NCBI GenBank assembly: GCA_964491115.1
Contig: CAZBEW010000002.1
Span: 62-64,061, forward strand
Reading direction: 5' to 3'
From: an uncultured Pseudomonadales bacterium
Lineage (GTDB): Bacteria; Patescibacteriota; Microgenomatia; UBA1400; PJMF01
DNA: 64,000 bases
In this document: positions 6,621 to 41,991 of the stretch, piece by piece
Position numbering within the stretch: the first letter of the stretch is position 1
How the letters are laid out: each line of letters begins with the position of its first letter
Notes under the pieces: model-generated
Databases searched by the model: none
What the model was told of the DNA's origin: nothing
The model's input: only the letters and a program-made list of their open reading frames with translations
Position numbers and translations under genes: made by a program

Positions 6621-6707
6621 TATTTATTAGCTAAAGCTTTGTGCAAAAAGTGATCAAATAGAGGAGTTGGGAGAATTTTGTAGTAGTCAAATTAATGAAA
6701 TAAAGAT

Positions 6708-6742
6708 TTGTCACAATCCCAAAAAATATATTACTGTATAAT
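6708..6742 (+). promoter_or_regulatory. putative sigma70-like promoter for the MazG-like/DUF2075 operon
   Basis: ttgtca (6708-6713) and consensus tataat (6737-6742, preceded by tg) just upstream of SD gaggt and ATG 6751. The -35/-10 spacing of 23 nt is long, so only the -10 element is convincing. Confidence 0.3.
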
Positions 6743-6750
6743 CAGAGGTA

Positions 6751-7098
6751 ATGTCAAAAATTGAAAAACTTACTCAAAAATTAATTGATTTTCGTGAAGC
6801 TCGCAATTGGAAACAATTCCATAACCCAAAAAATTTAGCAGAATCAATTTCTATAGAAGCAAACGAGCTACTAGAACACTTTCAGTGGTTGAATCTAGAA
6901 GAAAGTCAAAAATATAGTGTGGAGCATAAACAAGAATTAGCAGAAGAAATATCTGACGTTCTGAATTATCTAATTTTATTAGCTCATGACATAGACATTG
7001 ATTTAATTGAAGCTGCAATTAAAAAAATAGAAATAAATAATAAGAAATATCCAATAAAAAAGTCAAAAGGCATAAGCACAAAATATAATAAATTATAG
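6751..7098 (+). CDS. MazG-like nucleoside triphosphate pyrophosphohydrolase (all-alpha NTP-PPase)
   Basis: LIDFREARNWKQFHNPKNLAESISIEANELLEHFQW...EEISDVLNYLILLA is the typical MazG/YpjD-like signature (FHxPxNLAxxIxxEAxELLE, E-rich helix). Strong SD, and a 9-nt gap to the next gene. Confidence 0.7.
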   Translation: MSKIEKLTQKLIDFREARNWKQFHNPKNLAESISIEANELLEHFQWLNLEESQKYSVEHKQELAEEISDVLNYLILLAHDIDIDLIEAAIKKIEINNKKYPIKKSKGISTKYNKL

Positions 7099-7107
7099 AA
7101 TTACAAA

Positions 7108-8970
7108 ATGCTTGTTTATAAAAATACAGCTACTGGATTTTGCTACGACGTTGAGACTAATAAGATAGCTGACAGCATAGAATTAGCTTTCAAAAACAGT
7201 CTTGGTCGAAAAGTAAATCCTAGTGAAAAAAGTGCTTGGATAAACTCCATGTCATTTATGGAAAGAATAGTTCGTAATTCTGGAGTGGCTCAAGACTGTG
7301 GGGTTTTAATAGAATATAATATTCCAGCTACTTCTAAAAGAATAGATTTCATAATTGCTGGTTGTGATAGTGAAAACAAAAAAAAATTTGTTATTGTTGA
7401 ACTTAAACAATGGCAGCTAGCGAATAGCACTTTTAAAGATGGCCTTGTAACTAGTTTTTTTAGAGGTGGCGAAAGAGAAACTCCACATCCGTCTTATCAA
7501 GCATATTCTTACAAAAGTTTCTTAAAAGACTATAACGAGAATATTTATAGCGGTAAAATTAATCCCTATTCGTGTGCATATTTACACAATTATAAGGAAA
7601 AACACCCAGAGCCTCTAAAAGCTGATGCGTATAAAGAATACGTAGCTGATTCTCCAATTTACTTTCAAGATGACTTCGAAAAATTAGCAAACTTTATAAA
7701 AATGCATGTTGGTAATGGCGGTGGTGAAGAAATTCTTTATGACATAGAATCGGGGAGAATTAGGCCTAGTAAAAGATTAATTGACTGTGTAAGCGCAATG
7801 TTTAAAGGCAATCAAGAATTTATTCTCTTGGATGAACAAAAGGTTGCCTACGAAACAGCTCTTCATAGTGCTATCAATAGTAAAGAAAAAACTGTAATTA
7901 TTGTTAAAGGTGGTCCTGGTACTGGCAAATCAGTTGTTTCAATGAATTTATTTGGAGGATTACTCGCTAAACAGTTAAACACAGTTTTTGTAGCACCCAA
8001 TGCTGCTTTTAGAAGTGTGATGAAACATAAATTAGCTGGAGAGGAAAGGAAAGAGAAATTAAATCATTTGTTTAAAGGTTCGGCAGCTTTCTACGGGTTA
8101 AAAGATAACGTTTATGATGCAATTGTTGTTGATGAAGCACATCGTTTAAAAAATTATAAAGCTTACCAATATTTTGGACAAAATCAAATTGAAGATATTG
8201 TGAAGGCTGGTAAAACTAGTATTTTTTTTGTTGACGAAAATCAAATTATTCGTCCAGAAGACATAGGCTCGATTGAAGAAATTAAAAAAATAGCCAATCA
8301 ACAATATGCAACAATTAATGAAATAGAACTACAGGCTCAATTTAGATGTTCTGGTTCAGACGGATATATAAATTGGTTAGATAATACTTTAAGAATTAAA
8401 GAAACAGCAAATTTTGATGGTTGGGAAGACAAAAACTTTGAATTTCTTATTTTTGATGATCCGAATGATTTAAGGCAAGCTATTAAGAATAAACAAAATC
8501 AGGGGTTTGATGCTCAATTGCTAGCAGGATACGCTTGGAAATGGACAAGTGCAAAAGATGGCAATTATGATTCTCAGAGTGAAGATGTTCAGATACCTGA
8601 ATATAACTTTAGTATGCCTTGGAATTCAAGAAAAACTGGGTCAAATTGGGCAATTGATGCAAATAGCCACGAACAAATTGGTTGTGTACATACAAGTCAA
8701 GGTTTAGAATTTGACTATGTGGGTGTAATCGTTGGTAATGATCTGCGCTTTGATAAAGAAAAATTTGAGTATTTTGTTCCTTGGGACTCTTATAAGGATA
8801 TGGCTGGAAAAAAGGGTTTAAAAGATGAACCAGAAAAGCTATGTTTATTAGTAAAAAATATTTATAAAATTTTAATGACTAGAGGTATTTACGGTTGCTA
8901 TGTTTTTTTTCAAGACAAAAATTTGAAAGAGTTTGTTGAAAGTAGGTTGAAAAATGATTTATACAGGTAA
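7108..8970 (+). CDS. DUF2075-like nuclease-ATPase: N-terminal PD-(D/E)xK-like domain + Schlafen/helicase-like P-loop NTPase
   Basis: N-terminal region ...KRIDFIIAG...KFVIVELKQW has a D...ExK nuclease motif. Walker A GGPGTGKSVV, Walker B/DEAH-like VVDEAHRL, and a C-terminal region typical of DUF2075 proteins. Confidence 0.7.
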   Translation: MLVYKNTATGFCYDVETNKIADSIELAFKNSLGRKVNPSEKSAWINSMSFMERIVRNSGVAQDCGVLIEYNIPATSKRIDFIIAGCDSENKKKFVIVELKQWQLANSTFKDGLVTSFFRGGERETPHPSYQAYSYKSFLKDYNENIYSGKINPYSCAYLHNYKEKHPEPLKADAYKEYVADSPIYFQDDFEKLANFIKMHVGNGGGEEILYDIESGRIRPSKRLIDCVSAMFKGNQEFILLDEQKVAYETALHSAINSKEKTVIIVKGGPGTGKSVVSMNLFGGLLAKQLNTVFVAPNAAFRSVMKHKLAGEERKEKLNHLFKGSAAFYGLKDNVYDAIVVDEAHRLKNYKAYQYFGQNQIEDIVKAGKTSIFFVDENQIIRPEDIGSIEEIKKIANQQYATINEIELQAQFRCSGSDGYINWLDNTLRIKETANFDGWEDKNFEFLIFDDPNDLRQAIKNKQNQGFDAQLLAGYAWKWTSAKDGNYDSQSEDVQIPEYNFSMPWNSRKTGSNWAIDANSHEQIGCVHTSQGLEFDYVGVIVGNDLRFDKEKFEYFVPWDSYKDMAGKKGLKDEPEKLCLLVKNIYKILMTRGIYGCYVFFQDKNLKEFVESRLKNDLYR

Positions 8971-8974
8971 TTTC

Positions 8975-9160
8975 TTATTCTTTTAGTAATTTAGATTCAT
9001 TGGTGAATCTGTTAATTGAGATTTTTTTGAGAATCTTTTGACCTTGTTTGGTGTCAAAATCGATGATTTCTAATTTTTGTTTTTTATTAATAAAGCGAAA
9101 TTGACGTAATTTTAAATCTACAGTATATTTCTCAAAAGTTGGAAGTTTTATTATGGCCAT
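8975..9160 (-). CDS. small hypothetical protein (61 aa), possible swapped-hairpin (AbrB/MazE-like) DNA-binding regulator
   Basis: ORF divergent from the methyltransferase gene, with its start abutting a perfect 10-bp inverted repeat. The segment LEIIDFDTKQGQKILKK loosely resembles AbrB-type beta-hairpin DNA binders. This call is weak. Confidence 0.3.
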   Translation of the reverse strand: MAIIKLPTFEKYTVDLKLRQFRFINKKQKLEIIDFDTKQGQKILKKISINRFTNESKLLKE

Positions 9161-9189
9161 TGTAACTATTTTTTAAAACAATAGTTACA
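9161..9189. promoter_or_regulatory. perfect inverted repeat tgtaactatt-N9-aatagttaca (operator-like) between small ORF and M gene
   Basis: Read directly: tgtaactatt (9161-9170) and aatagttaca (9180-9189). Further TGTAA/GTTACA half-site copies follow at ~9196-9260 in the M-gene promoter region. Confidence 0.45.
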
Positions 9190-9296
9190 TTTGTTGTTAC
9201 AAATTAAAAGAATTACTTGCTGCATTTAATGTAAACTTATTGTAAGATTTGTATGTTTAAATAAACTAACATATAAACTTAAAAATTTTTGAGAAA

Positions 9297-10256
9297 ATGA
9301 CACAAAAAAAATATCGCACAATAGACCTATTTGCAGGCATGGGAGGCATTCGAATTGGTTTTGAGAAAGTTGGATTTGAGACTGTTTTTGCTAATGATTT
9401 TGATCATGATTGTAAAATTACCTATGATTTAAATTTTAATAAAACAAAGCTTCTTGTTCAGGATATAAGATCAATTCCAACCTCAAGCTTTCCCGATTTT
9501 GATTATATGTTGGCTGGATTTCCGTGCCAACCTTTTTCAGTTGCTGGTTACAGGCAAGGATTTTCCGATCTGCAGGGTAGAGGCAATTTGTTTTTTTATA
9601 TGGCAAGAATAATTCAAAACAGAAAACCAGCGGGCTTTCTACTGGAAAATGTTAAAAATTTAGAAGGTCACGATGGTGGTAAAACTTTTAGGATAATTAC
9701 AAAAACATTAGAAAATTTAGGCTATCACATTCAAACAAAAGTATTAAACACGATGGAATACGGTAATTTGCCACAAAATAGGGAAAGAATTTATATTGTT
9801 GGTTTTAATAATAAACAGACTTCTCATAACTTTAAATTTCCAGAAAAAATTAATCTTAAAATAAAAACTCAAGATTTGTTAGAGAAGGAAGTTCATGAAA
9901 AATATTACTACAATAATAAACCTTTATTTCCTAGAATTAAAGATTCTATTACTAGAGAAGATACCTTATATCAATGGAGACGTAAATATATTCGTGAAAA
10001 TAAAAAAGGAGTTTGTCCAACTTTAACAGCAAATATGGGTACTGGTGGACACAACGTGCCAATTATAAAACAAGGAAAAATAATAAGAAAATTAACACCA
10101 CGTGAGTGTGCAAGGTTTCAAGGTTTTCCAGACTCCTATATATTGCCAGAGATTGCTGATAGCAAGTTGTACAAGCAGATTGGGAATTCAGTCTCAATAC
10201 CGGTCATTAAAAGAATTGCTAGGAATATGAAACTGGCTATTGATAGCGGGTCATAA
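9297..10256 (+). CDS. DNA (cytosine-5)-methyltransferase, type II
   Basis: Motif I DLFAGMGGIRIGF, motif IV GFPCQPFSVAG, motif VI ENVKNL, C-terminal QIGNSVSIPV. This is canonical Dcm/C5-MTase. Confidence 0.9.
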   Translation: MTQKKYRTIDLFAGMGGIRIGFEKVGFETVFANDFDHDCKITYDLNFNKTKLLVQDIRSIPTSSFPDFDYMLAGFPCQPFSVAGYRQGFSDLQGRGNLFFYMARIIQNRKPAGFLLENVKNLEGHDGGKTFRIITKTLENLGYHIQTKVLNTMEYGNLPQNRERIYIVGFNNKQTSHNFKFPEKINLKIKTQDLLEKEVHEKYYYNNKPLFPRIKDSITREDTLYQWRRKYIRENKKGVCPTLTANMGTGGHNVPIIKQGKIIRKLTPRECARFQGFPDSYILPEIADSKLYKQIGNSVSIPVIKRIARNMKLAIDSGS

Positions 10257-21068: not shown

Positions 21069-22145
21069 TTACCTGAGCAAATTTTGCATTTGTTTGAATT
21101 GACAGGGTTCTTTACCTGCCAATTGTACTTTTTCTAAAAGCAAACGCTGCCCACTTGCTGTTTTTTTAATTTGGCAAGTTAATATTTTTAGTCTTAGGTC
21201 ACCTTTATGTGTGGGAATAATGGTCCATAAACCAGGCCAAGGTTGAAAAGCCCGACAAGCATTGTTAATTAAGTGCATTTGTTCGAGTTTAGTTAATGGA
21301 AAATTACCTAAGATGCCCTGCGCAGCCAATAATTGACACAGTAAAGCCTCTTTTTGACCACTCAGCGAGGAAGGGTTTTTAGCTAAATTATTAAGTTGGT
21401 TTTCTGGAGTTAGGCTCATCAGTTTTTTTAATTGTACCCATGAAATATAGGCATCTGCTTTACTCAAACGTTGGGCAAAGGGAGTGGGTGATTGTTTGGG
21501 CTGTGGAGTGCTGGTTAATTCGCCAGCAATAAATTGTTTGATGTTCTTGGCTAAGGATTTTGTCATCAGGGCAAAAGCTTGTGCGTAATAATCGCTAAGA
21601 GTCCAGCTATCTTCAATCTTAAATTTCTTCTGGATAATTATATCTCCAGCATCTAAATCCTTGCTTACCGTCATGAGGGTGACTGCGCTTTCTTGACTGC
21701 CGATTATGTGCTTTTGCCAAGGTCGTTCTAAGTCTTTAAATAGCATAGCAAATTGTCCAGGAGAACTACCTCGCCAATTAGGCAATAGTGATGGATGAAT
21801 GTTTAGTGTAGTAATTTTGGGAAAAGCTAAAAGCCAATCTGGGATAAAATAGCCAAAATCAACGACCAAAAAAAGATCGATCTCTTGTTCTTTAATTTGT
21901 TTTTTAAGTTGGGGGTTCTTGAGGTTATCTGGTACTAAAAAAATATTAATTTTTTGTGTCTGAGCCCAGTGTGCTAGAGGATTGATGGTCAATAACTGTT
22001 GGCGACCAATCTTTTTCGGAGGTGGAGTTAGCACCCAGACTAAATCAAAAGCCTGGTCTTTCACTAGAGTTTCGGCAATTTTTTGGCTGTGTTGGGTTGA
22101 ACCAGCGATCGCTAAACGAATTTTTTTCTTGCTAATAATGGACAT
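21069..22145 (-). CDS. fmt: methionyl-tRNA formyltransferase
   Basis: IAGSTQ..., VVDFGYFIP, NIHPSLLPNWRGSSP, and C-terminal WPGLWT; lies immediately downstream of def. Confidence 0.88.
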   Translation of the reverse strand: MSIISKKKIRLAIAGSTQHSQKIAETLVKDQAFDLVWVLTPPPKKIGRQQLLTINPLAHWAQTQKINIFLVPDNLKNPQLKKQIKEQEIDLFLVVDFGYFIPDWLLAFPKITTLNIHPSLLPNWRGSSPGQFAMLFKDLERPWQKHIIGSQESAVTLMTVSKDLDAGDIIIQKKFKIEDSWTLSDYYAQAFALMTKSLAKNIKQFIAGELTSTPQPKQSPTPFAQRLSKADAYISWVQLKKLMSLTPENQLNNLAKNPSSLSGQKEALLCQLLAAQGILGNFPLTKLEQMHLINNACRAFQPWPGLWTIIPTHKGDLRLKILTCQIKKTASGQRLLLEKVQLAGKEPCQFKQMQNLLR

Positions 22146-22169
22146 TTTGCCCTTTGTTTTAAAATTTGC

Positions 22170-22778
22170 TTAAAATTTGCTTAAAATTGTGCGATCTTCA
22201 AGCTCCACCCATTGATCTTTTTCCATAATGTAGGCTGGCAAATCCTGCTCCAATAGGTGATCGGTAAATAAAATGCCTTGTAAATGATCGTATTCATGTT
22301 GAATAATTCGGGCTGAAAATCCTTGATATTTTTCCGTTTTCTCTTCAACTTCGCCAGCCTTATTCAAACTTTGATATTTAACAGTCAGCCACTCCCAGCG
22401 GGGAACTGGGCCATAAATTTCTGGTATCGATAAACAGCCTTCAAAATGTTCTGGTGCTTTGAGTAAAGTTTTATTTTTACTGTGGTCAATAATCATTGGA
22501 TTAATAAAAGTAGTTAGTTGCTTTTGATTATTTTCTGGCTTTTGCTCTTTTTCTAGATGCTGATCAGGCTGATCCTGGGGCTGTTGAACACGGCGCATAG
22601 TAAAAATTTGCCAAGCTTTGTTGACTTGAGGAGCCGCTAAACCCACTCCTTCAGGATTTTTTTGGCGCAAGAGTTGCTGTTCCAGTCGCGCAACAAACTT
22701 TAGCAATCTTTTATCGAATTTTTCTACTCGATTAGCCACTAAGCGCAGAGTTGGATGAGGGGCTGTAATAATTTCCAT
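22170..22778 (-). CDS. def: peptide deformylase
   Basis: Motifs GVGLAAPQV, EGCLSIP, HEYDHLQG; carries an inserted Q/P-rich loop. Confidence 0.9.
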   Translation of the reverse strand: MEIITAPHPTLRLVANRVEKFDKRLLKFVARLEQQLLRQKNPEGVGLAAPQVNKAWQIFTMRRVQQPQDQPDQHLEKEQKPENNQKQLTTFINPMIIDHSKNKTLLKAPEHFEGCLSIPEIYGPVPRWEWLTVKYQSLNKAGEVEEKTEKYQGFSARIIQHEYDHLQGILFTDHLLEQDLPAYIMEKDQWVELEDRTILSKF

Positions 22779-34591: not shown

Positions 34592-35152
34592 ATGAAACAA
34601 AACCCGCATATTATTTCCAATCCCTCAGACATCCAAGCCATTGTCGCCAAAGCTAGAAAAAGTGGCAAGAAGATTGTTTTAACTCAGGGCTCTTTTGATT
34701 TAGTGCACATCGGTCACGCGCGATATTGTGAAAAAGCCAAGTCCTTTGGCGATTTATTAATCGTTGGCGTAGATAGCGATCAGAAAGTTAAAGCTCGCAA
34801 AGGCCAGAATCGACCCATTGTTCCTCAAGATGAACGCATGGAAATGCTGACCCATTTACGCAGCGTTGACTATGTAGTTTTGAAAGAAATTACTGATCCA
34901 AAATTTAATTTAATTAAATTAATAAAACCAGACGTATTAGTGGCCACTAAAAACACTTATGACTCTAGCACGATCCAGAAACTAAAATCCTTCTGTGCTA
35001 AGATCATTGTGTTGGAGCCGATGGCAACTACCAGCACCACCGGTAAAATTCGCTTAATGCAAATCGAAACAGTAAACAGCATTAAAGACAAAATAAGCAG
35101 CAAACTAAGCAAAAGCATTGAAGACGTATTAGCCGAATTCAAAGAAGCTTAA
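34592..35152 (+). CDS. cytidylyltransferase-fold nucleotidyltransferase, RfaE domain II (heptose-1-P adenylyltransferase)-like
   Basis: TQGSFDLVHIGHARYCEKAKSFGDLLIVGVDSDQKVKARKGQNRPIVPQDERMEMLTHLRSVDYVV matches the G-x-FD-x-x-H-x-GH ... RP ... VD-x-VV pattern of HldE C-domain/TagD-like enzymes. Confidence 0.65.
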   Translation: MKQNPHIISNPSDIQAIVAKARKSGKKIVLTQGSFDLVHIGHARYCEKAKSFGDLLIVGVDSDQKVKARKGQNRPIVPQDERMEMLTHLRSVDYVVLKEITDPKFNLIKLIKPDVLVATKNTYDSSTIQKLKSFCAKIIVLEPMATTSTTGKIRLMQIETVNSIKDKISSKLSKSIEDVLAEFKEA

Positions 35153-35178
35153 AACGCAAATTGAAAACAAGAAATAAT

Positions 35179-36135
35179 ATGGAAACAGCAATTGCTCTAT
35201 ACATACCCGTTTTACATGAAGGCTATCGCTTATTTTTAGAAAAACATCATCAGAGCAAAAACTTGTTTTTATTTGATCAGCAATTCTTACGCAATTGGCC
35301 AGATTTTGATTATATAAAAAAAGACATTCGAGCACTTGATAGCCAACTAATGAAGCAAGCCATCGAGCAAATTTTTCCGAATTTAGAAATTACAATTATC
35401 AAAGAGCAAAAAGATTGGCAAGAATTTTTACTATGGATCAAAAATAATCAGCGACAGTGGATCCTTAGTAATGATGATTTTGGTCGATATTTAGCTCAAG
35501 AAATTTTGCACGACCAAAAAATTAGCATCAGTTCATATTTTTTACGCTGGGATCGATCAGCTGTTGAACTAGCTCGCCAAGAAAAAACAACAACTAGCCC
35601 AGAAACCCAGTTAGCTGATCGCATAATCGATCAAGCTGGTTTAGAAAAAGAAATGATGAAGGACGCCTTTATCCAGGCTAATTACAGCAATGATTGGTGG
35701 CGTCAAGTTGGAGCCATCTTTGCAAAAGACGGAAAAACATTAATTAGCACTTACAACCAACACTTACCCAGCACCCAAGAACAACATTTTAACGGCGACC
35801 CACGCAGTTTATTTTCATCTGGCGAAGCCATAGAATTAACTAGTTCTATTCATGCAGAAGCGCTCGCTGTCGCTCGCGCCGCCGCTCAAGGCATCGCCTT
35901 AGCTGGCGCAGATTTGTTTGTGACAACCTTTCCTTGCCCAGTTTGTGCCAAACTAATTGCTAAAACAGGCATTAAACGCTTATATTTTAGCGAAGGCTAT
36001 GCTGTTTTAGATGGCTTGGCCGTTTTAAAAAGCGCTGAGATCGAAATTATCCAAGTGCAATTTTCTAAAAAAGAACAAGCAGGGTTATTAAAAACTCAGC
36101 AAACAGCCAGTAATTTAAAAAAACGTTACTCTTAA
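35179..36135 (+). CDS. cytidine/deoxycytidylate deaminase-domain protein with ~160-aa N-terminal extension of unknown function
   Basis: C-terminal half has the zinc-binding signature HAEALAV...FVTTFPCPVCAKLIAKTGIKRLYF (H-A-E ... P-C-x-x-C), as in dCMP deaminase/ComEB. The N-terminal ~160 aa have no match I recognise. An alternative TTG start lies at 35161. Confidence 0.65.
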   Translation: METAIALYIPVLHEGYRLFLEKHHQSKNLFLFDQQFLRNWPDFDYIKKDIRALDSQLMKQAIEQIFPNLEITIIKEQKDWQEFLLWIKNNQRQWILSNDDFGRYLAQEILHDQKISISSYFLRWDRSAVELARQEKTTTSPETQLADRIIDQAGLEKEMMKDAFIQANYSNDWWRQVGAIFAKDGKTLISTYNQHLPSTQEQHFNGDPRSLFSSGEAIELTSSIHAEALAVARAAAQGIALAGADLFVTTFPCPVCAKLIAKTGIKRLYFSEGYAVLDGLAVLKSAEIEIIQVQFSKKEQAGLLKTQQTASNLKKRYS

Positions 36136-37016: not shown

Positions 37017-37484
37017 CTATTTAGCCTTATCAGCACCAATTTTAATCCGAACTGGAACAAAATCTGGATTGGTAAAATCAGGTTCAATCAATTGAATATG
37101 TATGTGACTAATGGTGCCGGCACTATAATCAGTGTCGCCAAAGCGCATTGCCAATCCACCACCTTTAATGGCGTAAGTTTTTTCCATTTCAGCAACTAAT
37201 TCAAATAGTTCTTGACCAGCAGCTGGCGACAAATCACTCAAATTAACGGCATGGACTTTATAAATTAATAAAAAATGATGCTTGGTATTTTTATAGGGCC
37301 ACTGATTCGTTGTGACTATCCAAAATTTGCCTTCTTTAAGAATTGCTTGCTGATGATATTTGGCCAGGTTTTCTCGACAAAAAGGACAATGCTTGGCTTC
37401 AGCAATATTATTCATCACCGACTTTTGCTCTTCTTCTCGAGCATTGGCTAGATTAATAAACTGATTTTTGACTTTTTTTGCCAT
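37017..37484 (-). CDS. HIT-superfamily protein, HxHxQ variant (GalT/Ap4A-phosphorylase-like branch)
   Basis: Zinc-knuckle CPFC near the N-terminus and the triad region GTISHIHIQLIEP (H-x-H-x-Q). Confidence 0.7.
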   Translation of the reverse strand: MAKKVKNQFINLANAREEEQKSVMNNIAEAKHCPFCRENLAKYHQQAILKEGKFWIVTTNQWPYKNTKHHFLLIYKVHAVNLSDLSPAAGQELFELVAEMEKTYAIKGGGLAMRFGDTDYSAGTISHIHIQLIEPDFTNPDFVPVRIKIGADKAK

Positions 37485-37548
37485 GTTTAGACTGTCACTT
37501 TTGCCATGCTTAGACTAGCACTTTTGTCGTGCCTAGACTGCCACTGGA
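37480..37548. repeat. ~23-bp tandem triplication spanning HIT start codon and thyA stop
   Basis: gccatgtttagactgtcactttt / gccatgcttagactagcactttt / gtcgtgcctagactgccact; read directly. Confidence 0.6.
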
Positions 37549-38432
37549 ATATTCCAAATTCCAGGATGAGCTTGATAATTTTCTAATGTAAAATCTTCTT
37601 TACGAAAAGCAAATAAATCCTTAATCTTTGGATTTATTTTCATTTGTGGAAGAGCTTTAACTTCGCGCTCTAACATAGTTTTGACCGCATCAATTTGATC
37701 CACATAAATGTGAGCGTCAGAAAAACTATGGACAAATTCATAAGCCTCTAAACCTAGAACTTGAGCAATCATCATCGTTAGGGCAGCGTATTGCACCATA
37801 TTTGAAGGGACACCAATGGGGACGTCGGCACTGCGCTGGAACATGTGGAGAGTTAATTTTTGATCAATAATCCGCAAATGAATCCAACCGTGACAAGGAC
37901 ACACTACAACTTTTTGTGTGCGACCTTTAACACGCATAGTGTATTGAGGTATCCAGGGGCTAATGAAATGAGTGCGTAAGTGTGGTTGTTCACGCATTTG
38001 CTGTAAAATATTGGCAAATTGATTATAATTTTCTCCTTCAGCAGTTGGGAAATCATGAAAAGCTGCCCCATAAGATCCGGGACCAAGATCACCAGTTTCC
38101 AGCCCTCTTTTTTTTGCTTTAGCTTCGCTACCCCAAGCTTTCCACCAAAAACAACCATAACTTTCTAGTTCGTCAATGGTTCTAGCTCCATTAATAAAGG
38201 CAATAATTTCGGCAATAGCTTGTTGCCAAATTTTCTCACTTAATTTGCGTTCAGTAATCGCGGGAAAACCTTCAGCTAATTTAAAATGCATGGGTTTTGG
38301 GCCAATAATGCTGAGAGCATCTACTCCCTGAGGAGTACTAACTCTTTGGCCATGATCGAGAATTTCTGCTAAAAGGAGTTGATATTGAGATCGTTGTTTT
38401 TCCATAACTTCTAATATATCATAAAGCTGCAT
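37533..38432 (-). CDS. thyA: thymidylate synthase (ThyA type)
   Basis: Collinear with ThyA throughout: DLGPGSYG, catalytic VVCPCHGW (PCH), FQRSADVPIGVPSNMVQYAALTMMIAQ, C-terminal HPGIWNIPVAV. Confidence 0.88.
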   Translation of the reverse strand: MQLYDILEVMEKQRSQYQLLLAEILDHGQRVSTPQGVDALSIIGPKPMHFKLAEGFPAITERKLSEKIWQQAIAEIIAFINGARTIDELESYGCFWWKAWGSEAKAKKRGLETGDLGPGSYGAAFHDFPTAEGENYNQFANILQQMREQPHLRTHFISPWIPQYTMRVKGRTQKVVVCPCHGWIHLRIIDQKLTLHMFQRSADVPIGVPSNMVQYAALTMMIAQVLGLEAYEFVHSFSDAHIYVDQIDAVKTMLEREVKALPQMKINPKIKDLFAFRKEDFTLENYQAHPGIWNIPVAV

Positions 38433-38444
38433 TTAAGGAATTTT

Positions 38445-39245
38445 ATGAAAGTCATAGCTCTCAAAACCCCCATGATTGCTGTTGGTCAAGAATTAAGACC
38501 AATCATTAATCAAAGTATTAAGGAAAATTTTGCCGATGGTCTACCAGAACGCTCGGTTTTAGTAGTGACCTCTAAGATTATTGCTTATGAACAAGGGCGC
38601 TTAGTCCCAACCCTAGCGGCGCAACAGGGGAGAGAAGTTAGTCGAGAAGAAGAACGAGCTTTTAAGCATGATTTGGTGAGTCAAGAAGCTGACTATTATT
38701 TAGATCCTCATAGTTCTAAATACGATTTAATGTTAACCATTGCCGAAGCCACGCTTATGGTTAATGCGGGCATCGATGAATCCAATGCCAACGACAACTA
38801 TATTTTATGGCCAAAAAATTTGTATGCTGAAGCTGAAAAAATTTGGCGTAATTTGCGAGAGGATTTCGGTGTTAAAGAAGTGGGAGTGATTATCCCTGAT
38901 AGTCGGTCAGTGCCATTGCGTTGGGGAGTGGTGGGGATGTCTTTGGCAAGTTGTGGTTTTCAACCATTAAATAGTCGAGTGGGTGATGAGGATTTATTTG
39001 GTAGAGAAATTAAAATGGTTCAAGTTAATGTCGCTGAGGCTTTGGCCGTGGCAGCAGTCTTGGAAATGGGCGAAGTTGATGAACAAACCCCATTGGCTTT
39101 GGTCACTGACAGCAAGATGGTAGAATTTATGGATCGACCCCTGAACGATCAAGAATTAGCCGCTTTAAGAATCGAAATTGAAGACGACATGTATGGACCT
39201 TTATTAACCCAGGCAAACTGGCAAAAGGGCAAAAGAAATGAGTGA
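38445..39245 (+). CDS. CofE-like (F420-0:gamma-glutamyl ligase family) protein
   Basis: VVTSKIIAYEQGRL, MVNAGIDESNA, VGVIIPDSRS, and DLFGREIKMVQVNVAEALAVAAVLEMGEVDEQTPLALV match conserved CofE blocks (vsSKvvskaEGR / taGID.SN / DlfGr...vaDelAaaA.LvmGe..E..PvaL). Confidence 0.6.
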   Translation: MKVIALKTPMIAVGQELRPIINQSIKENFADGLPERSVLVVTSKIIAYEQGRLVPTLAAQQGREVSREEERAFKHDLVSQEADYYLDPHSSKYDLMLTIAEATLMVNAGIDESNANDNYILWPKNLYAEAEKIWRNLREDFGVKEVGVIIPDSRSVPLRWGVVGMSLASCGFQPLNSRVGDEDLFGREIKMVQVNVAEALAVAAVLEMGEVDEQTPLALVTDSKMVEFMDRPLNDQELAALRIEIEDDMYGPLLTQANWQKGKRNE

Positions 39246-39816
39246 AAAACTAAGATCACGAATTAAAGACACGCTAATTGTCGCTAGTAGCAAAGATGGT
39301 TACATTAGCCCAGCTGATGGTGTTGAATTGCCCTCAACCAAGTGGACCAGTAAAGAAGATTATCAGTTTTTTACTGAGAAAACTCAAGAAATTGGGGTCA
39401 TGATCATGGGTCGAGCCACTTATGAGACCATTGGTCACCCTTTACCTCGACGGCTAATTATTGTTTTAACCAGTGATAGTGAAAAGCAAAGTGAATTGGC
39501 TAGACGCAAATTAAAAATGGATTATTTGCCCAATAATTTACGTTTTACTAGCAAATCTCCTCAAGAAGTATTGGCAGCCTTAGCCAATGAGGGTTATGAG
39601 CAAGTGGCTCTTTGTGGTGGAGCTAGCTTGTATCAATTGTTTACCGATGAAGATTTGGTTGATGAAATGTTTATCACTATTGAGCCAATTGAATTTGGCG
39701 ATGGCATCAAATTATTCAAAGACAATAAAGTTTTTGGCAATTTTCAATTAGTCAAAGAAATACCGCTAAATCAGCAAGGCACTATTGTTCAACATTGGGT
39801 GAGAAAAGCAGCTTAA
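39238..39816 (+). CDS. dihydrofolate-reductase-like reductase (RibD C-terminal domain family)
   Basis: ASSKDGYI, VMIMGRATYETIG, RRLIIVLTS, ALCGGASLYQLF...VDEMFITIEP..GDG is the RibD_C/DHFR-like fold. 8-nt overlap with the CofE-like gene. Confidence 0.65.
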   Translation: MSEKLRSRIKDTLIVASSKDGYISPADGVELPSTKWTSKEDYQFFTEKTQEIGVMIMGRATYETIGHPLPRRLIIVLTSDSEKQSELARRKLKMDYLPNNLRFTSKSPQEVLAALANEGYEQVALCGGASLYQLFTDEDLVDEMFITIEPIEFGDGIKLFKDNKVFGNFQLVKEIPLNQQGTIVQHWVRKAA

Positions 39817-39817
39817 A

Positions 39818-40042
39818 TTAAATTATTTCACCGTGGTCAGTGTTTTGTTCAGCGATCTTTTCAGCTTCTTTTTTGCTGAGTTCTGGAAACCGCTTTATGA
39901 GCAAATCAACTATCATTGGAAGAGGATTATGTCTAAGTTGATGTGCAAAATCATTAGCCGCTTGAATTATTTGTGCTTCTGGTGTTAGTACACGGTCAGT
40001 TAGTAACTCTAGTCTCATTCCTGGTGCTTCTGGTTTCTTCAT
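39818..40042 (-). CDS. small hypothetical protein (74 aa)
   Basis: ORF only; convergent with DHFR-like gene; no motif. Confidence 0.3.
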   Translation of the reverse strand: MKKPEAPGMRLELLTDRVLTPEAQIIQAANDFAHQLRHNPLPMIVDLLIKRFPELSKKEAEKIAEQNTDHGEII

Positions 40043-40109: not shown

Positions 40110-40718
40110 TTAATAAAAACTGTCACCGTGACCTGGTAAAGCGAGAGAATAAGCCCCAGCTTGTTTGAGCTCTTTTAATTTAGCTAAACTGCTTAGCAAA
40201 TCCTGATAATTACTATATGAAAAATCAGTGCGACCAACACCATTGGCAAAAAGAGTATCGCCGGTAAACAAGTAAGTTTCATCATTATCTTGTTTTTCGC
40301 TTAATAGAGCGATGCCTCCCGGTGTATGGCCAGGCATATGCATCACTTTGAGAGTTTCTTGACCAAAATTGATGATTTGCCCATCACTCAGGGTTTGATT
40401 AGCTTCAGGCACTGGATCAACCTCTTTATTTAGCCAATGGCGAGCATTATTTTGAGCTTGAGCAATTAAAAAATTATCAGCAGGATGAAGCATAATGGGT
40501 AATTTTGGCCAGGCAGTAGCTAAACTTAACAAGCCCAAACAATGATCAAAATGTCCATGAGTTAAAATTACTCTAGTTAAAATTAAATTTTGCCGACTCA
40601 GCTCTTCATTTAAAAAATCACCATCATCAGCTGGATCAATAATTAATGCTTCTTCACCGTTGTCTAGTAAGTAGCAATTTGTTTGTAAATCTCCCAGTGT
40701 AAAAGTTTGTAAATTCAT
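40110..40718 (-). CDS. MBL-fold metallo-hydrolase (glyoxalase II-like)
   Basis: LTHGHFDHCLG (HxHxDH), HMPGHTPGG, FTGDTLF, LPGHG. Confidence 0.8.
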   Translation of the reverse strand: MNLQTFTLGDLQTNCYLLDNGEEALIIDPADDGDFLNEELSRQNLILTRVILTHGHFDHCLGLLSLATAWPKLPIMLHPADNFLIAQAQNNARHWLNKEVDPVPEANQTLSDGQIINFGQETLKVMHMPGHTPGGIALLSEKQDNDETYLFTGDTLFANGVGRTDFSYSNYQDLLSSLAKLKELKQAGAYSLALPGHGDSFY

Positions 40719-40780: not shown

Positions 40781-41215
40781 ATGAAGGTTAAGATTAAGCG
40801 TTTTGATAAAAATCTAGCTTTACCAGTATACAAAACAGCTGGGGCAGCTGCCCTCGATTTAGCTAGTCGGGTAGAAGTAAAAATTGAGCCAAATCAAGTT
40901 GCTTATTTACCCTTAAATATTGCCCTAAAAGTTCCCAAAGACAGCTTTGTTTTAGTCGCAGCCCGCAGTTCTTTACATAAAATGGGTTTAATGCTGATTA
41001 ATGGCATTGGCATCGGTGACAGTGATTATTGTGGGAGTGACGATGAATATCAGGCTGCAGTTTATAACTTTAGCAAAAAAACCGTGCTAGTTAAAAAAGC
41101 AGAGCGAGTGGTGCAAATGCTAGTGCTCAGACGAGAAAAAGTAGAGTGGGAAGAGGTGGCAGAGTTCTCCAAAAAAAATAATCGTGGTGGTTTTGGCAGT
41201 ACTGGCAAAACATAA
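40781..41215 (+). CDS. dut: dUTP diphosphatase
   Basis: AGAAALDL, GIGIGDSDYCG (motif III), C-terminal RGGFGSTG (motif V). Confidence 0.85.
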   Translation: MKVKIKRFDKNLALPVYKTAGAAALDLASRVEVKIEPNQVAYLPLNIALKVPKDSFVLVAARSSLHKMGLMLINGIGIGDSDYCGSDDEYQAAVYNFSKKTVLVKKAERVVQMLVLRREKVEWEEVAEFSKKNNRGGFGSTGKT

Positions 41216-41265: not shown

Positions 41266-41991
41266 ATGAAAACAAAAACTGGTTTATTAATTACTCTTGA
41301 AGGAGGAGAAGGTGGTGGTAAAACCACCCAAATTGTGCGTTTAAAAAAACATTTAACAGAAGCAGGTAAAGATGTGGTGGTCTTGCGTGAACCAGGCGGA
41401 ACAACCATCAGTGAGCAAATACGAGAAGTAGTTCTATCAAGTAAAAATACTAGTATTGCTTTTACTACTGAAGTTTTATTGTTTCAGGCAGCTCGCTCGC
41501 AAATTTATCGAGAAATAGTTTTGCCCTCACTGAAGGCTGGAAAAGTAGTGGTGATGGATCGCTCGCGTGATAGTAGCGTTGTTTATCAGGGCATGGTGCG
41601 CGGTTTTGGTACAGAATTAATTGAGCAACTCAATGATATTTCAACAAAAAAAACTTATCCAGATATTACTTTTTTACTTGATATACCAGTTAATATTGGT
41701 CTTGGAAGAAGAAATGGCGCCGGCGATGTTAATCGTCTAGACATGGAAGCCAAAGATTTTCATCAAAAAGTTCGTCAGTCTTATTTAGATTTAGCCAAGC
41801 AAGATCAAGAACAACATGGCAAAAAGGCTCGTTGGGTGGTGATTGATGCTCGACCCAGTGCAGATCAAGTAGAGAAAAAAATTTGGCAGATAGTTAAAGA
41901 ATTTTTAGCAAAAAATCAGTTAAGTTCTTGGGAAGATAAAATTGCTGATCTAGATTTAGAAGACGTGAGCAAGCCAAAAAACAAGGATTGA
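41266..41991 (+). CDS. tmk: thymidylate kinase
   Basis: P-loop ITLEGGEGGGKTTQ, DRSRDSS (DRY/H-like), and a LID region. Confidence 0.88.
   Translation: MKTKTGLLITLEGGEGGGKTTQIVRLKKHLTEAGKDVVVLREPGGTTISEQIREVVLSSKNTSIAFTTEVLLFQAARSQIYREIVLPSLKAGKVVVMDRSRDSSVVYQGMVRGFGTELIEQLNDISTKKTYPDITFLLDIPVNIGLGRRNGAGDVNRLDMEAKDFHQKVRQSYLDLAKQDQEQHGKKARWVVIDARPSADQVEKKIWQIVKEFLAKNQLSSWEDKIADLDLEDVSKPKNKD

What the first reader, a model, noticed from the sequence alone, without database searches (positions are those of the whole stretch)
37533..39816. thyA divergently paired with a CofE-like gamma-glutamyl-ligase-family gene overlapping a DHFR-like (RibD_C) reductase gene
- **Seen:** ThyA (PCH active site) is transcribed divergently from an operon of a CofE-family protein and a RibD-C/DHFR-fold reductase, with an 8-nt overlap between the two.
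- **Seen:** dut and tmk follow within 1.5 kb.
- **Established:** ThyA oxidises methylene-THF to DHF, which must be re-reduced by a DHFR. RibD_C-fold proteins can substitute for FolA. CofE ligates glutamates onto F420-0.
- **Inference:** the RibD_C protein is probably the organism's DHFR. The co-operonic CofE-like enzyme in a genome unlikely to make F420 suggests a non-canonical role, for example folate (poly)glutamylation replacing FolC, or modification of another glutamylated cofactor.
Basis: partly seen in the sequence, partly recalled or inferred. Interest (0 to 1): 0.6.

Follow-up and report, generated by a model that had tools for sequence, protein, structure and literature searches.

The report
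Folate-recycling thymidylate gene cluster, CPR bacterium
A tiny-genome (Patescibacteria/CPR) bacterium keeps its thymidylate synthase next to an ordinary dihydrofolate reductase and a CofE-family glutamate ligase that most likely adds glutamate tails to folate; that job for this enzyme family was shown in Chlamydia in 2007, so this is a new member of a known kind and not a new system.

Summary
In detail: thyA (37533-38432, -) lies 12 nt from a divergent pair, a PF01996/CofE-family gene (38445-39245) and a DHFR gene (39238-39816) overlapping it by 8 nt; dut and tmk follow. The organism is a Paceibacteria-type Patescibacterium. The reductase is a FolA-family DHFR closest to Thermotoga maritima DHFR (E 8.6e-26; TM 0.90), not an exotic RibD_C substitute, and CPR folA genes have been shown to complement E. 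coli ΔfolA. The ligase scores twice as high on NCBIfam TIGR04132 ('putative folate metabolism gamma-glutamate ligase') as on any CofE model, but sits below both cutoffs. A CofE homologue acting as folylglutamate synthase (FolC2, Chlamydia CT611, next to folA) was published in 2007, and JGI/NCBI pipelines already give some CPR homologues folate-related names. Across 80 species-level loci DHFR lies within 6 kb in 30 and directly downstream in 25, in three sub-clades of one family; the other 50 sit among housekeeping genes, never F420 genes. No CPR member has been assayed, and absence of folC/F420 genes genome-wide could not be checked. Side leads: a real transporter::ligase fusion and a RimK-like partner.

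The parts
37533..38432 (-). thyA, thymidylate synthase (ThyA type)
   Evidence: PF00303 E 1.3e-66; TIGR03284 195.2 bits > cutoff 108.35; CPCH nucleophile motif
38433..38444 (.). 12-nt gap between the divergent start codons of thyA and the ligase gene (TTAAGGAATTTT, contains AAGGA before the ligase ATG)
   Evidence: Read directly; same spacing in 98%-identical relatives L002-L004; promoter scan uninformative
38445..39245 (+). CofE-family (PF01996/COG1478) gamma-glutamyl ligase, FolC2-like; proposed folylpolyglutamate synthase
   Evidence: PF01996 E 2e-35; TIGR04132 229.4 bits, full length, vs TIGR01916 114.9 bits; AF2 pLDDT 94.6, Af-CofE TM 0.71-0.80
39238..39245 (+). 8-nt overlap ATGAGTGA (DHFR start inside the ligase stop region), suggesting translational coupling
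   Evidence: Read directly; DHFR directly downstream and mostly overlapping in 25 of 80 loci
39238..39816 (+). folA-type dihydrofolate reductase (Thermotoga maritima type)
   Evidence: PF00186 59.8 bits; PDB 1cz3 E 8.6e-26; AF2 pLDDT 91.7, TM 0.90 / rmsd 2.5 A to 1cz3; W36, D41, F45, G127-G128 conserved
39818..40042 (-). small conserved ORF (74 aa), no family
40110..40718 (-). MBL-fold hydrolase (GloB-like), conserved cluster member
   Evidence: PF00753 E 1.3e-28; present in 21 of 80 loci
40781..41215 (+). dut, dUTPase
   Evidence: PF00692 E 6.9e-19; TIGR00576 E 1.9e-28, 99.0 bits, just below its 102.55 cutoff; co-located in 30 of 80 loci
41266..41991 (+). tmk, dTMP kinase
   Evidence: TIGR00041 171.8 > 83.25; in 25 of 80 loci
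37017..37484 (-). HIT-like protein (CPFC + HIHIQ motifs), constant neighbour of thyA
   Evidence: Weak PF01230 E 1e-4; adjacent to ThyA in 23 of 23 ThyA-containing loci and in L085
36141..37004 (+). Cof-type HAD-IIB phosphatase
   Evidence: PF08282 E 5e-35
35161..36135 (+). dCMP-deaminase-domain protein with an N-terminal domain of about 160 aa that has no family (supplies dUMP)
   Evidence: PF00383 E 4.2e-16 at residues 163-277; in 24 of 80 loci
34592..35152 (+). CTP_transf_like nucleotidyltransferase, conserved cluster member
   Evidence: PF01467 in L002; homologue in 21 loci and fused to the ligase in P0307
21069..22145 (-). fmt, methionyl-tRNA formyltransferase: a second folate-dependent enzyme in the window, outside the cluster
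   Evidence: PF00551 E 1.7e-23 + PF02911, next to def

Best explanation
This is the thymidylate-synthesis and folate-recycling cluster of a Paceibacteria-type Patescibacterium (CPR). dCMP deaminase and dUTPase supply dUMP. ThyA methylates dUMP with 5,10-methylene-THF and releases dihydrofolate. The adjacent FolA-type DHFR reduces that back to THF, and Tmk phosphorylates the dTMP. The gene translationally coupled to DHFR encodes a CofE-fold gamma-glutamyl ligase of the FolC2 type. It most likely adds gamma-linked glutamates to folate, which in this reduced genome is probably salvaged, and so provides the folylpolyglutamate-synthase function normally given by FolC. That would retain the cofactor in the cell and improve its use by ThyA, DHFR and Fmt. 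By analogy with Af-CofE, the chemistry would be nucleotide-triphosphate (GTP)-dependent formation of an acyl-phosphate on the terminal carboxylate at a two-metal site, followed by attack by L-glutamate. Shown here: gene identities, folds, arrangement, conservation of the linkage, and closest curated family. Inferred: folate as the substrate, GTP dependence, the salvage lifestyle, and absence of FolC.
For: Family: TIGR04132 'putative folate metabolism gamma-glutamate ligase' is the best NCBIfam hit, matches end to end (1-261 to 1-241/241), and scores 229 bits against 115 for CofE. The same holds for all 16 + 8 + 10 family members tested. Fold: only Af-CofE structures match (TM 0.71-0.80). The NAGIDESN, D152-S153 and M208-G209-E210 blocks shared with CofE are invariant in 82 homologues. 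The Af-CofE segment G153-C155, which contacts the F420 chromophore (PMC10861534), is S155-V156-P157 here, and the family has its own invariant C-terminal extension that CofE models do not cover. Linkage: DHFR overlaps the ligase gene by 8 nt; DHFR lies within 6 kb in 30 of 80 species loci and directly downstream in 25, in three sub-clades. Precedent: Chlamydia CT611/FolC2 (COG1478) sits next to folA and complements an E. coli folC mutant (PMC1971073; PMC4161248). DHFR: nearest T. maritima DHFR; CPR folA genes complement ΔfolA (PMC11974145). Folate is used here: ThyA and Fmt are in the window. No F420 or canonical folC/folP/folK gene was found in the 64 kb or among the conserved neighbours in the 80 loci. 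Pipelines already name some homologues 'dihydrofolate synthase / folylpolyglutamate synthase' or 'putative folate metabolism gamma-glutamate ligase'.
Against: The protein scores below the TIGR04132 cutoff (229 < 350), as do all CPR members tested (215-275 bits), so it is not a certified equivalog. I could not obtain CT611 for a direct phylogeny. In 50 of 80 species loci the gene sits among UvrB, LexA, UvrA, Cob_adeno_trans, iPGM and enolase, with no folate gene within 6 kb. The only full CofE-like::DHFR fusion (P0098) is a singleton that a 1-nt indel could produce. A real fusion to a YhhQ/queuosine-precursor-transporter domain could point to a non-folate substrate. No CPR member has been assayed. 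Absence of FolC and of F420 genes from the whole genome was not testable.
Confidence: 0.68

Rival explanations
1. The ligase glutamylates a different carboxylate-bearing small molecule, such as another imported pterin or deazapurine-type compound or an unknown cofactor. Its frequent position next to DHFR would then reflect general nucleotide/cofactor clustering in compact genomes.
For: 50 of 80 loci show no folate linkage. The protein is below the cutoffs of both curated models. There is a real fusion with a YhhQ/QPTR-family transporter that passes the 'queuosine precursor transporter' cutoff, and a stand-alone Vut_1 gene is adjacent in L068. Other partners are varied: RimK-like ATP-grasp, nucleotidyltransferase, Usp.
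Against: Known YhhQ substrates (preQ0, preQ1, queuine) have no carboxylate to glutamylate (my knowledge of their structures). The closest curated family is the folate one, by a margin of about 115 bits. The DHFR overlap is conserved in three sub-clades. The only experimentally tested non-F420 member of COG1478 acts on folate (PMC1971073).
Confidence: 0.2
2. It is a genuine CofE that makes the glutamate tail of coenzyme F420.
For: Pfam family PF01996; NCBI names many homologues 'coenzyme F420-0:L-glutamate ligase'; the fold is that of Af-CofE.
Against: It is below every CofE cutoff (114.9 < 180.65; 107.7 < 274; 85 < 304). The chromophore-contact segment G153-C155 is replaced. There is no cofC/cofD/cofG/cofH/fbiC in the window or among the conserved neighbours in the 80 loci. 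As far as I know, CPR genomes are not known to make or use F420.
Confidence: 0.04
3. The adjacency means nothing functionally: it is a housekeeping gene of unrelated role that happens to lie beside folA in some compact genomes.
For: In the majority of loci the neighbours are housekeeping genes. The loci are phylogenetically non-independent.
Against: The start/stop overlap with DHFR is kept across proteins only about 50% identical, and the same adjacency occurs in Chlamydia. The linkage recurs with different local arrangements (DHFR directly downstream, about 3 kb downstream, or upstream).
Confidence: 0.08

Closest known systems
FolC2 (Chlamydia trachomatis CT611; COG1478), the alternative dihydrofolate/folylpolyglutamate synthase; curated as NCBIfam TIGR04132
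   Same: Same superfamily (PF01996/COG1478). TIGR04132 is the best full-length hit. The gene is directly adjacent to folA. The host is a reduced-genome bacterium with no F420 context. The proposed role, replacing FolC, is the same (PMC1971073, PMC4161248).
   Different: It scores below the TIGR04132 cutoff (229 vs 350), so it belongs to a separate, very large Patescibacteria clade (429 representatives at 50% identity with E<=1e-30). The gene order is ligase then folA, in a thymidylate cluster (thyA, dut, tmk, dCMP deaminase), whereas Chlamydia has the de novo folate operon folB-folKP-folA-folC2-ct610. No folKP was seen here, so only the FPGS (salvage/retention) half of the function is expected. 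It is untested experimentally.
CofE / FbiB N-terminal domain (F420-0:L-glutamate ligase), e.g. Archaeoglobus fulgidus CofE (2PHN, 7ULD)
   Same: Same fold (TM 0.71-0.80, about 25% identity). The NAGID.SN, D-[ST] and MGE blocks are conserved. It presumably uses the same GTP / two-metal acyl-phosphate chemistry (PMC10861534).
   Different: It is below all CofE equivalog cutoffs. The chromophore-contact segment differs (G-R-C becomes S-V-P). It has a family-specific insertion (PHSSKY region) and a conserved C-terminal extension of about 40 residues. There is no F420 gene context.
FolC / FPGS (Mur-ligase family, COG0285)
   Same: The proposed reaction and physiological role are the same: adding gamma-glutamates to folates.
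   Different: It is not homologous (different fold). FolC uses ATP, whereas CofE-family enzymes use GTP.
Thermotoga maritima DHFR (1CZ3/1D1G) and the CPR folA genes validated in PMC11974145
   Same: The window DHFR is 34-36% identical to TmDHFR with TM 0.90, and keeps the W/D/F substrate-site residues and the GG NADPH motif.
   Different: It has an N-terminal extension of about 10 residues and a longer loop at 80-100. It was not itself assayed.

Membership tests
PF01996 / COG1478 gamma-glutamyl ligase superfamily | Significant match to the family profile over the whole domain | tested here: met
   PF01996 E 2e-35, 122.7 bits vs cutoff 25, residues 6-221
PF01996 / COG1478 gamma-glutamyl ligase superfamily | CofE fold | tested here: met
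   AF2 model pLDDT 94.6; Foldseek hits only Af-CofE chains, TM 0.71-0.80, E 3.5e-19
PF01996 / COG1478 gamma-glutamyl ligase superfamily | Conserved acidic/polar blocks shared with CofE (NAGID.SN, D-[ST], MGE). From my recollection of the Af-CofE structure papers, these line the GTP/metal site; I did not check this here. | tested here: met
   G109, D111, S113, N114, D152, S153, M208, G209, E210 are invariant in 82 homologues and aligned to the same blocks of Af-CofE
CofE (F420-0:L-glutamate ligase) equivalog | Score above the curated cutoffs of TIGR01916 / NF009809 / NF009810 | tested here: not met
   114.9 < 180.65; 107.7 < 274; 85 < 304; same for 34 family members
CofE (F420-0:L-glutamate ligase) equivalog | Residues that hold the F420 chromophore in Af-CofE (F92, G153-C155, R234 of the partner subunit; PMC10861534) | tested here: inconclusive
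   G153-R154-C155 aligns to S155-V156-P157. The F92 region is gapped differently. R234 lies outside the alignable region. No residue-level structural superposition was available.
CofE (F420-0:L-glutamate ligase) equivalog | Co-location or co-occurrence with other F420 biosynthesis genes (cofC, cofD, cofG/H or fbiC) | tested here: not met
   None in the 64-kb window. None among the recurrent neighbours in 80 loci. Whole-genome presence was not testable.
FolC2-type folate gamma-glutamate ligase (NCBIfam TIGR04132; Chlamydia CT611) | Score above the curated cutoff (350 bits) | tested here: not met
   229.4 bits; other CPR members 215-275 bits
FolC2-type folate gamma-glutamate ligase (NCBIfam TIGR04132; Chlamydia CT611) | Closer to this model than to CofE, over the full length including the C-terminal region | tested here: met
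   E 3.8e-68 vs 3.9e-33; aligned 1-261 to 1-241/241, whereas CofE models stop near residue 225; 16 of 16 members
FolC2-type folate gamma-glutamate ligase (NCBIfam TIGR04132; Chlamydia CT611) | Physical clustering with folate genes, especially folA | tested here: met
   8-nt overlap with DHFR; DHFR directly downstream in 25 of 80 loci and within 6 kb in 30 of 80. Not met in 50 of 80 loci.
FolC2-type folate gamma-glutamate ligase (NCBIfam TIGR04132; Chlamydia CT611) | Genome lacks canonical FolC (COG0285), i.e. non-orthologous displacement | not testable with these tools
   Only the 64-kb window and +/-10 kb flanks were accessible; no Mur-ligase-type folC was seen in them
FolC2-type folate gamma-glutamate ligase (NCBIfam TIGR04132; Chlamydia CT611) | Complements an E. 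coli folC mutant / glutamylates folate in vitro | not testable with these tools
   Experimental; done only for CT611 (PMC1971073)
FolC2-type folate gamma-glutamate ligase (NCBIfam TIGR04132; Chlamydia CT611) | Monophyly with chlamydial FolC2 in a tree that includes true CofE/FbiB | not tested
   The CT611 sequence could not be retrieved and AFDB50 was unavailable. The NJ tree had only Af-CofE as outgroup.
FolA-type dihydrofolate reductase (PF00186) | Profile match, DHFR fold and substrate-site residues | tested here: met
   PF00186 59.8 bits > 25; 1cz3 E 8.6e-26; TM 0.90, rmsd 2.5 A; W36 and G127-G128 are invariant and D41 and F45 are >=90% conserved in 50 homologues
FolA-type dihydrofolate reductase (PF00186) | DHFR activity | not testable with these tools
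   Other CPR folA genes complement E. coli ΔfolA (PMC11974145); this one was not assayed
ThyA thymidylate synthase | Equivalog score and catalytic Cys motif | tested here: met
   TIGR03284 195.2 > 108.35; CPCH in the translation

The most novel reading that the evidence does not exclude
The Patescibacteria clade of FolC2-like ligases could be a dedicated 'import-and-trap' module for folate auxotrophs. In this reading an FPGS-only enzyme polyglutamylates host-derived folate. In some lineages it is physically coupled to a YhhQ/Vut_1-family transporter (fusion P0404; adjacency in L068), which would then be a previously unrecognised folate/pterin importer subfamily. In others it is coupled to a RimK-like ATP-grasp ligase that could add alpha-linked glutamates to the tail. 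That would make COG1478, not FolC, the main folate-glutamylating enzyme across a large part of the bacterial tree.
Probability: 0.2. Interest if true: 0.55.

Novelty: new member of a known kind. Interest (0 to 1): 0.3.

Why it matters
If correct, it fills the 'missing folC' step in folate metabolism for a very large group of uncultured, host-dependent bacteria. NCBI currently labels many of these genes as F420 ligases, which wrongly implies F420 metabolism. It also fits the recent proposal that CPR bacteria process and exchange folates with their hosts (PMC11974145), since polyglutamylation decides whether folate is kept in the cell or released. The concept itself is 19 years old and is already encoded in a curated HMM and in JGI product names, so the gain is better annotation and a wider known distribution, not a new mechanism.

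Tried and rejected
1. Gene fusion as Rosetta-stone evidence. P0098 (CofE-like::DHFR) looked decisive, but a search with the fused protein found no second fusion, and its 90%-identical relative is stand-alone. Because the genes overlap in adjacent frames, a 1-nt indel would create it, so I gave it little weight. P0362 (DHFR::partial ligase, two short Logan contigs) is also doubtful.

2. Whole-genome check for folC, folP, folK and F420 genes.

3. Retrieving Chlamydia CT611 for a direct tree. It was not among the top hits of any search, and AFDB50 was unavailable.

4. Promoter and terminator scans. Both were at chance level.

5. Looking for SHMT, FolD or other one-carbon genes between the ligase and DHFR in variant loci. 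I found only peptidase S41/DnaJ, carbamoyltransferase-like, APH-like and RimK-like genes.

6. Mapping Af-CofE F92 onto the window protein. The two alignments disagree, so I make no claim.

7. RibD_C as the identity of the reductase. Rejected in favour of FolA-type DHFR.
Full report
**1. What is in the sequence**

- thyA (37533-38432, minus strand, 299 aa) matches PF00303 at E 1.3e-66. It passes the NCBIfam thymidylate synthase equivalog cutoff (TIGR03284, 195.2 > 108.35) and carries the CPCH nucleophile motif.
- Twelve nucleotides away on the other strand starts a 266-aa PF01996 'F420_ligase' protein (38445-39245, E 2e-35).
- Its last 8 nt (ATGAGTGA) contain the start of a 192-aa reductase gene (39238-39816).
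- dut (40781-41215) and tmk (41266-41991) follow.
- Upstream lie a dCMP-deaminase-domain protein, a Cof-type HAD phosphatase and a HIT-like protein.

The region therefore reads as a dTMP-synthesis cluster. Consensus promoter and terminator scans were at chance level, so 'operon' rests on geometry alone.

**2. Whose genome**

Close relatives (98% identity) from three metagenomes share the full gene order. A scan of species-representative genomes returned 80 loci, almost all from Patescibacteria/CPR (Paceibacterota, Microgenomates, Woesebacteria, Beckwithbacteria and others). The nearest is 'Candidatus Paceibacterota bacterium AS06rmzACSIP_209'. Window GC content is about 37%.

The rest of the window encodes typical CPR housekeeping genes. 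These include fmt and def (21069-22778), so at least two folate-dependent enzymes (ThyA and Fmt) are present. No canonical folC, folP, folK or F420 gene is present.

**3. The reductase is an ordinary DHFR**

- It hits PF00186 (59.8 bits) more strongly than RibD_C (50.9 bits).
- Its best solved relative is Thermotoga maritima DHFR (1CZ3, E 8.6e-26).
- A high-confidence AF2 model (pLDDT 91.7) superposes on 1CZ3 with TM 0.90 and rmsd 2.5 Å. Dozens of genuine DHFRs follow in the hit list.
- In 50 homologues, W36 and G127-G128 (in CGGASLY) are invariant, D41 and F45 are at least 90% conserved, and the MGRATYETIG block matches the family consensus.
- A 2025 study showed that CPR folA genes complement E. 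coli ΔfolA and that folA/glyA/folD occur in about 91% of 4,581 CPR genomes (PMC11974145).

**4. The CofE-like protein**

By sequence and predicted structure it has the CofE fold. Only Af-CofE chains match (TM 0.71-0.80, about 25% identity). The NAGIDESN, D152-S153 and M208-G209-E210 blocks shared with CofE are invariant in 82 homologues.

It fails every curated CofE cutoff (114.9 < 180.65; 107.7 < 274; 85 < 304). Its best hit is NCBIfam TIGR04132, 'putative folate metabolism gamma-glutamate ligase', at 229.4 bits and E 3.8e-68. That match runs end to end and includes a conserved C-terminal extension of about 40 residues that CofE models do not cover. The same pattern held for all 34 other family members tested: 174-275 bits on TIGR04132 overall, against 86-140 on TIGR01916, with the CPR members at 215-275. 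None reaches the 350-bit cutoff. This is therefore a distinct clade nearest the curated folate-ligase family, and not a certified member.

In Af-CofE the F420 chromophore is held by F92, G153-C155 and R234' (PMC10861534). G153-R154-C155 aligns with S155-V156-P157 here. The F92 region aligns inconsistently, and R234 lies outside the alignable region, so the pocket comparison is suggestive only.

**5. Precedent**

de Crécy-Lagard et al. (2007) noted that chlamydiae lack folC but have a COG1478/CofE homologue (CT611, 'FolC2') inside the folate gene cluster. They showed that it complements an E. coli folC mutant (PMC1971073). The chlamydial operon is folB-folKP-folA-folC2-ct610, so folA and folC2 are neighbours there too (PMC4161248).

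JGI already names several CPR homologues 'dihydrofolate synthase / folylpolyglutamate synthase' or 'putative folate metabolism gamma-glutamate ligase'. NCBI names one Beckwithbacteria homologue the latter, and most others 'coenzyme F420-0:L-glutamate ligase'. I found no paper that discusses this gene in CPR. The 2025 CPR folate paper does not mention folC, polyglutamate or F420.

**6. How conserved is the linkage?**

I used the window proteins, plus a DHFR profile HMM, to search six-frame ORFs of the 80 loci.

| Feature near the ligase gene | Loci (of 80) |
|---|---|
| DHFR within ±6 kb | 30 |
| DHFR directly downstream on the same strand, mostly overlapping | 25 |
| ThyA + HIT-like | 23 |
| dCMP deaminase | 24 |
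| dut | 30 |
| tmk | 25 |

An NJ tree places the linked loci in three sub-clades interleaved with unlinked ones, all on one long branch away from Af-CofE. This fits one orthologous family whose neighbourhood has been reshuffled.

The 50 unlinked loci share a different, housekeeping context: UvrB (divergent), UvrA, LexA, Cob_adeno_trans, iPGM, enolase, PIG-L, GNAT and TyrRS. None has an F420 gene.

The linkage is therefore real and well above chance. It is a property of part of the family, and the loci are not independent observations.

**7. Fusions**

The CofE-like::DHFR fusion P0098 lies in the same context but is a singleton. A search with the fused protein found no other, and its 90%-identical relative is unfused. 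A 1-nt indel would create it, so I discount it.

An exhaustive profile search found 2,453 representatives at 50% identity with E ≤ 1e-3, and 429 with E ≤ 1e-30. A few are multi-domain:

- **Transporter fusion.** P0404 is Vut_1 (YhhQ/queuosine-precursor-transporter family, above the TIGR00697 cutoff) fused to the ligase. It is identical in three independent samples, in a host whose neighbouring genes do not look like those of a CPR organism. A stand-alone Vut_1 gene overlaps the ligase gene start in Beckwithbacteria locus L068.
- **RimK-like partner.** P0295 is a ligase::RimK-like ATP-grasp fusion. A RimK-like gene directly follows the ligase in L019 and L029.
- **Others.** There are also fusions to a nucleotidyltransferase and to Usp.

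The transporter link fits an 'import then trap by glutamylation' role. It equally keeps open a non-folate substrate, because all characterised COG1738 members carry queuosine precursors (PMC5372724, PMC11130926).

**8. Mechanism proposed**

Shown: gene identities, folds, arrangement and closest families.

Inferred:

- ThyA turns methylene-THF into DHF.
- The co-translated DHFR regenerates THF.
- The ligase extends the gamma-glutamyl tail of folate, probably salvaged folate since no folP/folK was seen.
- By analogy with CofE, the chemistry would be a GTP-dependent acyl-phosphate at a two-metal site followed by glutamate attack (PMC10861534).
- The tail would retain the cofactor and improve its use by ThyA, DHFR and Fmt.

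| Explanation | Confidence |
|---|---|
| Folate glutamylation (FolC2-like) | about 0.68 |
| Another glutamylated small molecule | about 0.2 |
| No functional meaning to the adjacency | about 0.08 |
| True CofE | about 0.04 |

**9. Verdict**

It is best filed as a new, very large and under-annotated Patescibacteria branch of a known kind. It works like FolC2, but membership in the curated equivalog is not met on score. Interest is modest (0.3). The transporter and RimK associations are the only parts that could lead somewhere new.

Noticed in passing
window 37017-37484 (-): A 155-aa HIT-like protein (CPFC motif plus HIHIQ, i.e. HxHxQ rather than HxHxH) is the immediate neighbour of thyA in 23 of 23 ThyA-containing loci and in L085. 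It has only marginal Pfam HIT (E 1e-4) and PDB hits (E > 0.02). It is a conserved, uncharacterised partner of ThyA in Patescibacteria.
   Followed up: partly
L086-L088 8001-9392; L068 5390-6004 / 5989-6747: A real gene fusion of a YhhQ/Vut_1 'queuosine precursor transporter' domain with a FolC2-like ligase occurs identically in three independent samples. A stand-alone Vut_1 gene overlaps the ligase gene start in a Beckwithbacteria genome. I found no mention in the YhhQ/QPTR literature I searched.
   Followed up: partly
L029 2128-2895; L019 2668-3516; protein P0295: A RimK-like ATP-grasp (alpha-L-glutamate-ligase family, weak MptN/CofF similarity) directly follows the FolC2-like gene in one sub-clade and is fused to it in P0295. 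This hints at a second glutamate-adding step.
   Followed up: partly
window 35161-36135 (+): The dCMP-deaminase-domain protein carries an N-terminal domain of about 160 aa with no Pfam match. It is conserved beside the thyA cluster in 24 loci. The C-terminal part gives a partial hit to the 'anti-phage dCTP deaminase' model, far below its cutoff.
   Followed up: no
unlinked loci, e.g. L081 5387-5974: A PduO-type Cob_adeno_trans (PF01923) gene lies about 1 kb downstream of the ligase gene in 25 of the 50 loci that lack DHFR linkage. This is odd for organisms not expected to use cobalamin.
   Followed up: no
loci L007, L009-L011 and many others; L031: Many of these Patescibacteria records are titled 'uncultured Pseudomonadales bacterium' (apparently mislabelled TPA assemblies). 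The 'candidate division TM6' complete genome CP011212 (853,053 bp) has the same Paceibacteria-type synteny. A protein on a contig of identical length (P0237) is named by NCBI under 'Candidatus Pacebacteria' and mis-annotated as 'polymerase III beta clamp subunit'.
   Followed up: no
window 2196-10256: A 1474-aa ORF with no Pfam hit is followed by a Schlafen-group-3-like helicase (7108-8970) and a C-5 cytosine DNA methylase (9297-10256), in the lowest-GC part of the window (about 30-33%). This may be a defence or mobile island.
   Followed up: no
L085 3822-5183; proteins P0098, P0362: The apparent CofE-like::DHFR fusion (P0098) is a singleton. P0362 is DHFR fused to a truncated ligase, found on two short contigs. 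Both are probably assembly or indel artefacts of overlapping genes.
   Followed up: yes
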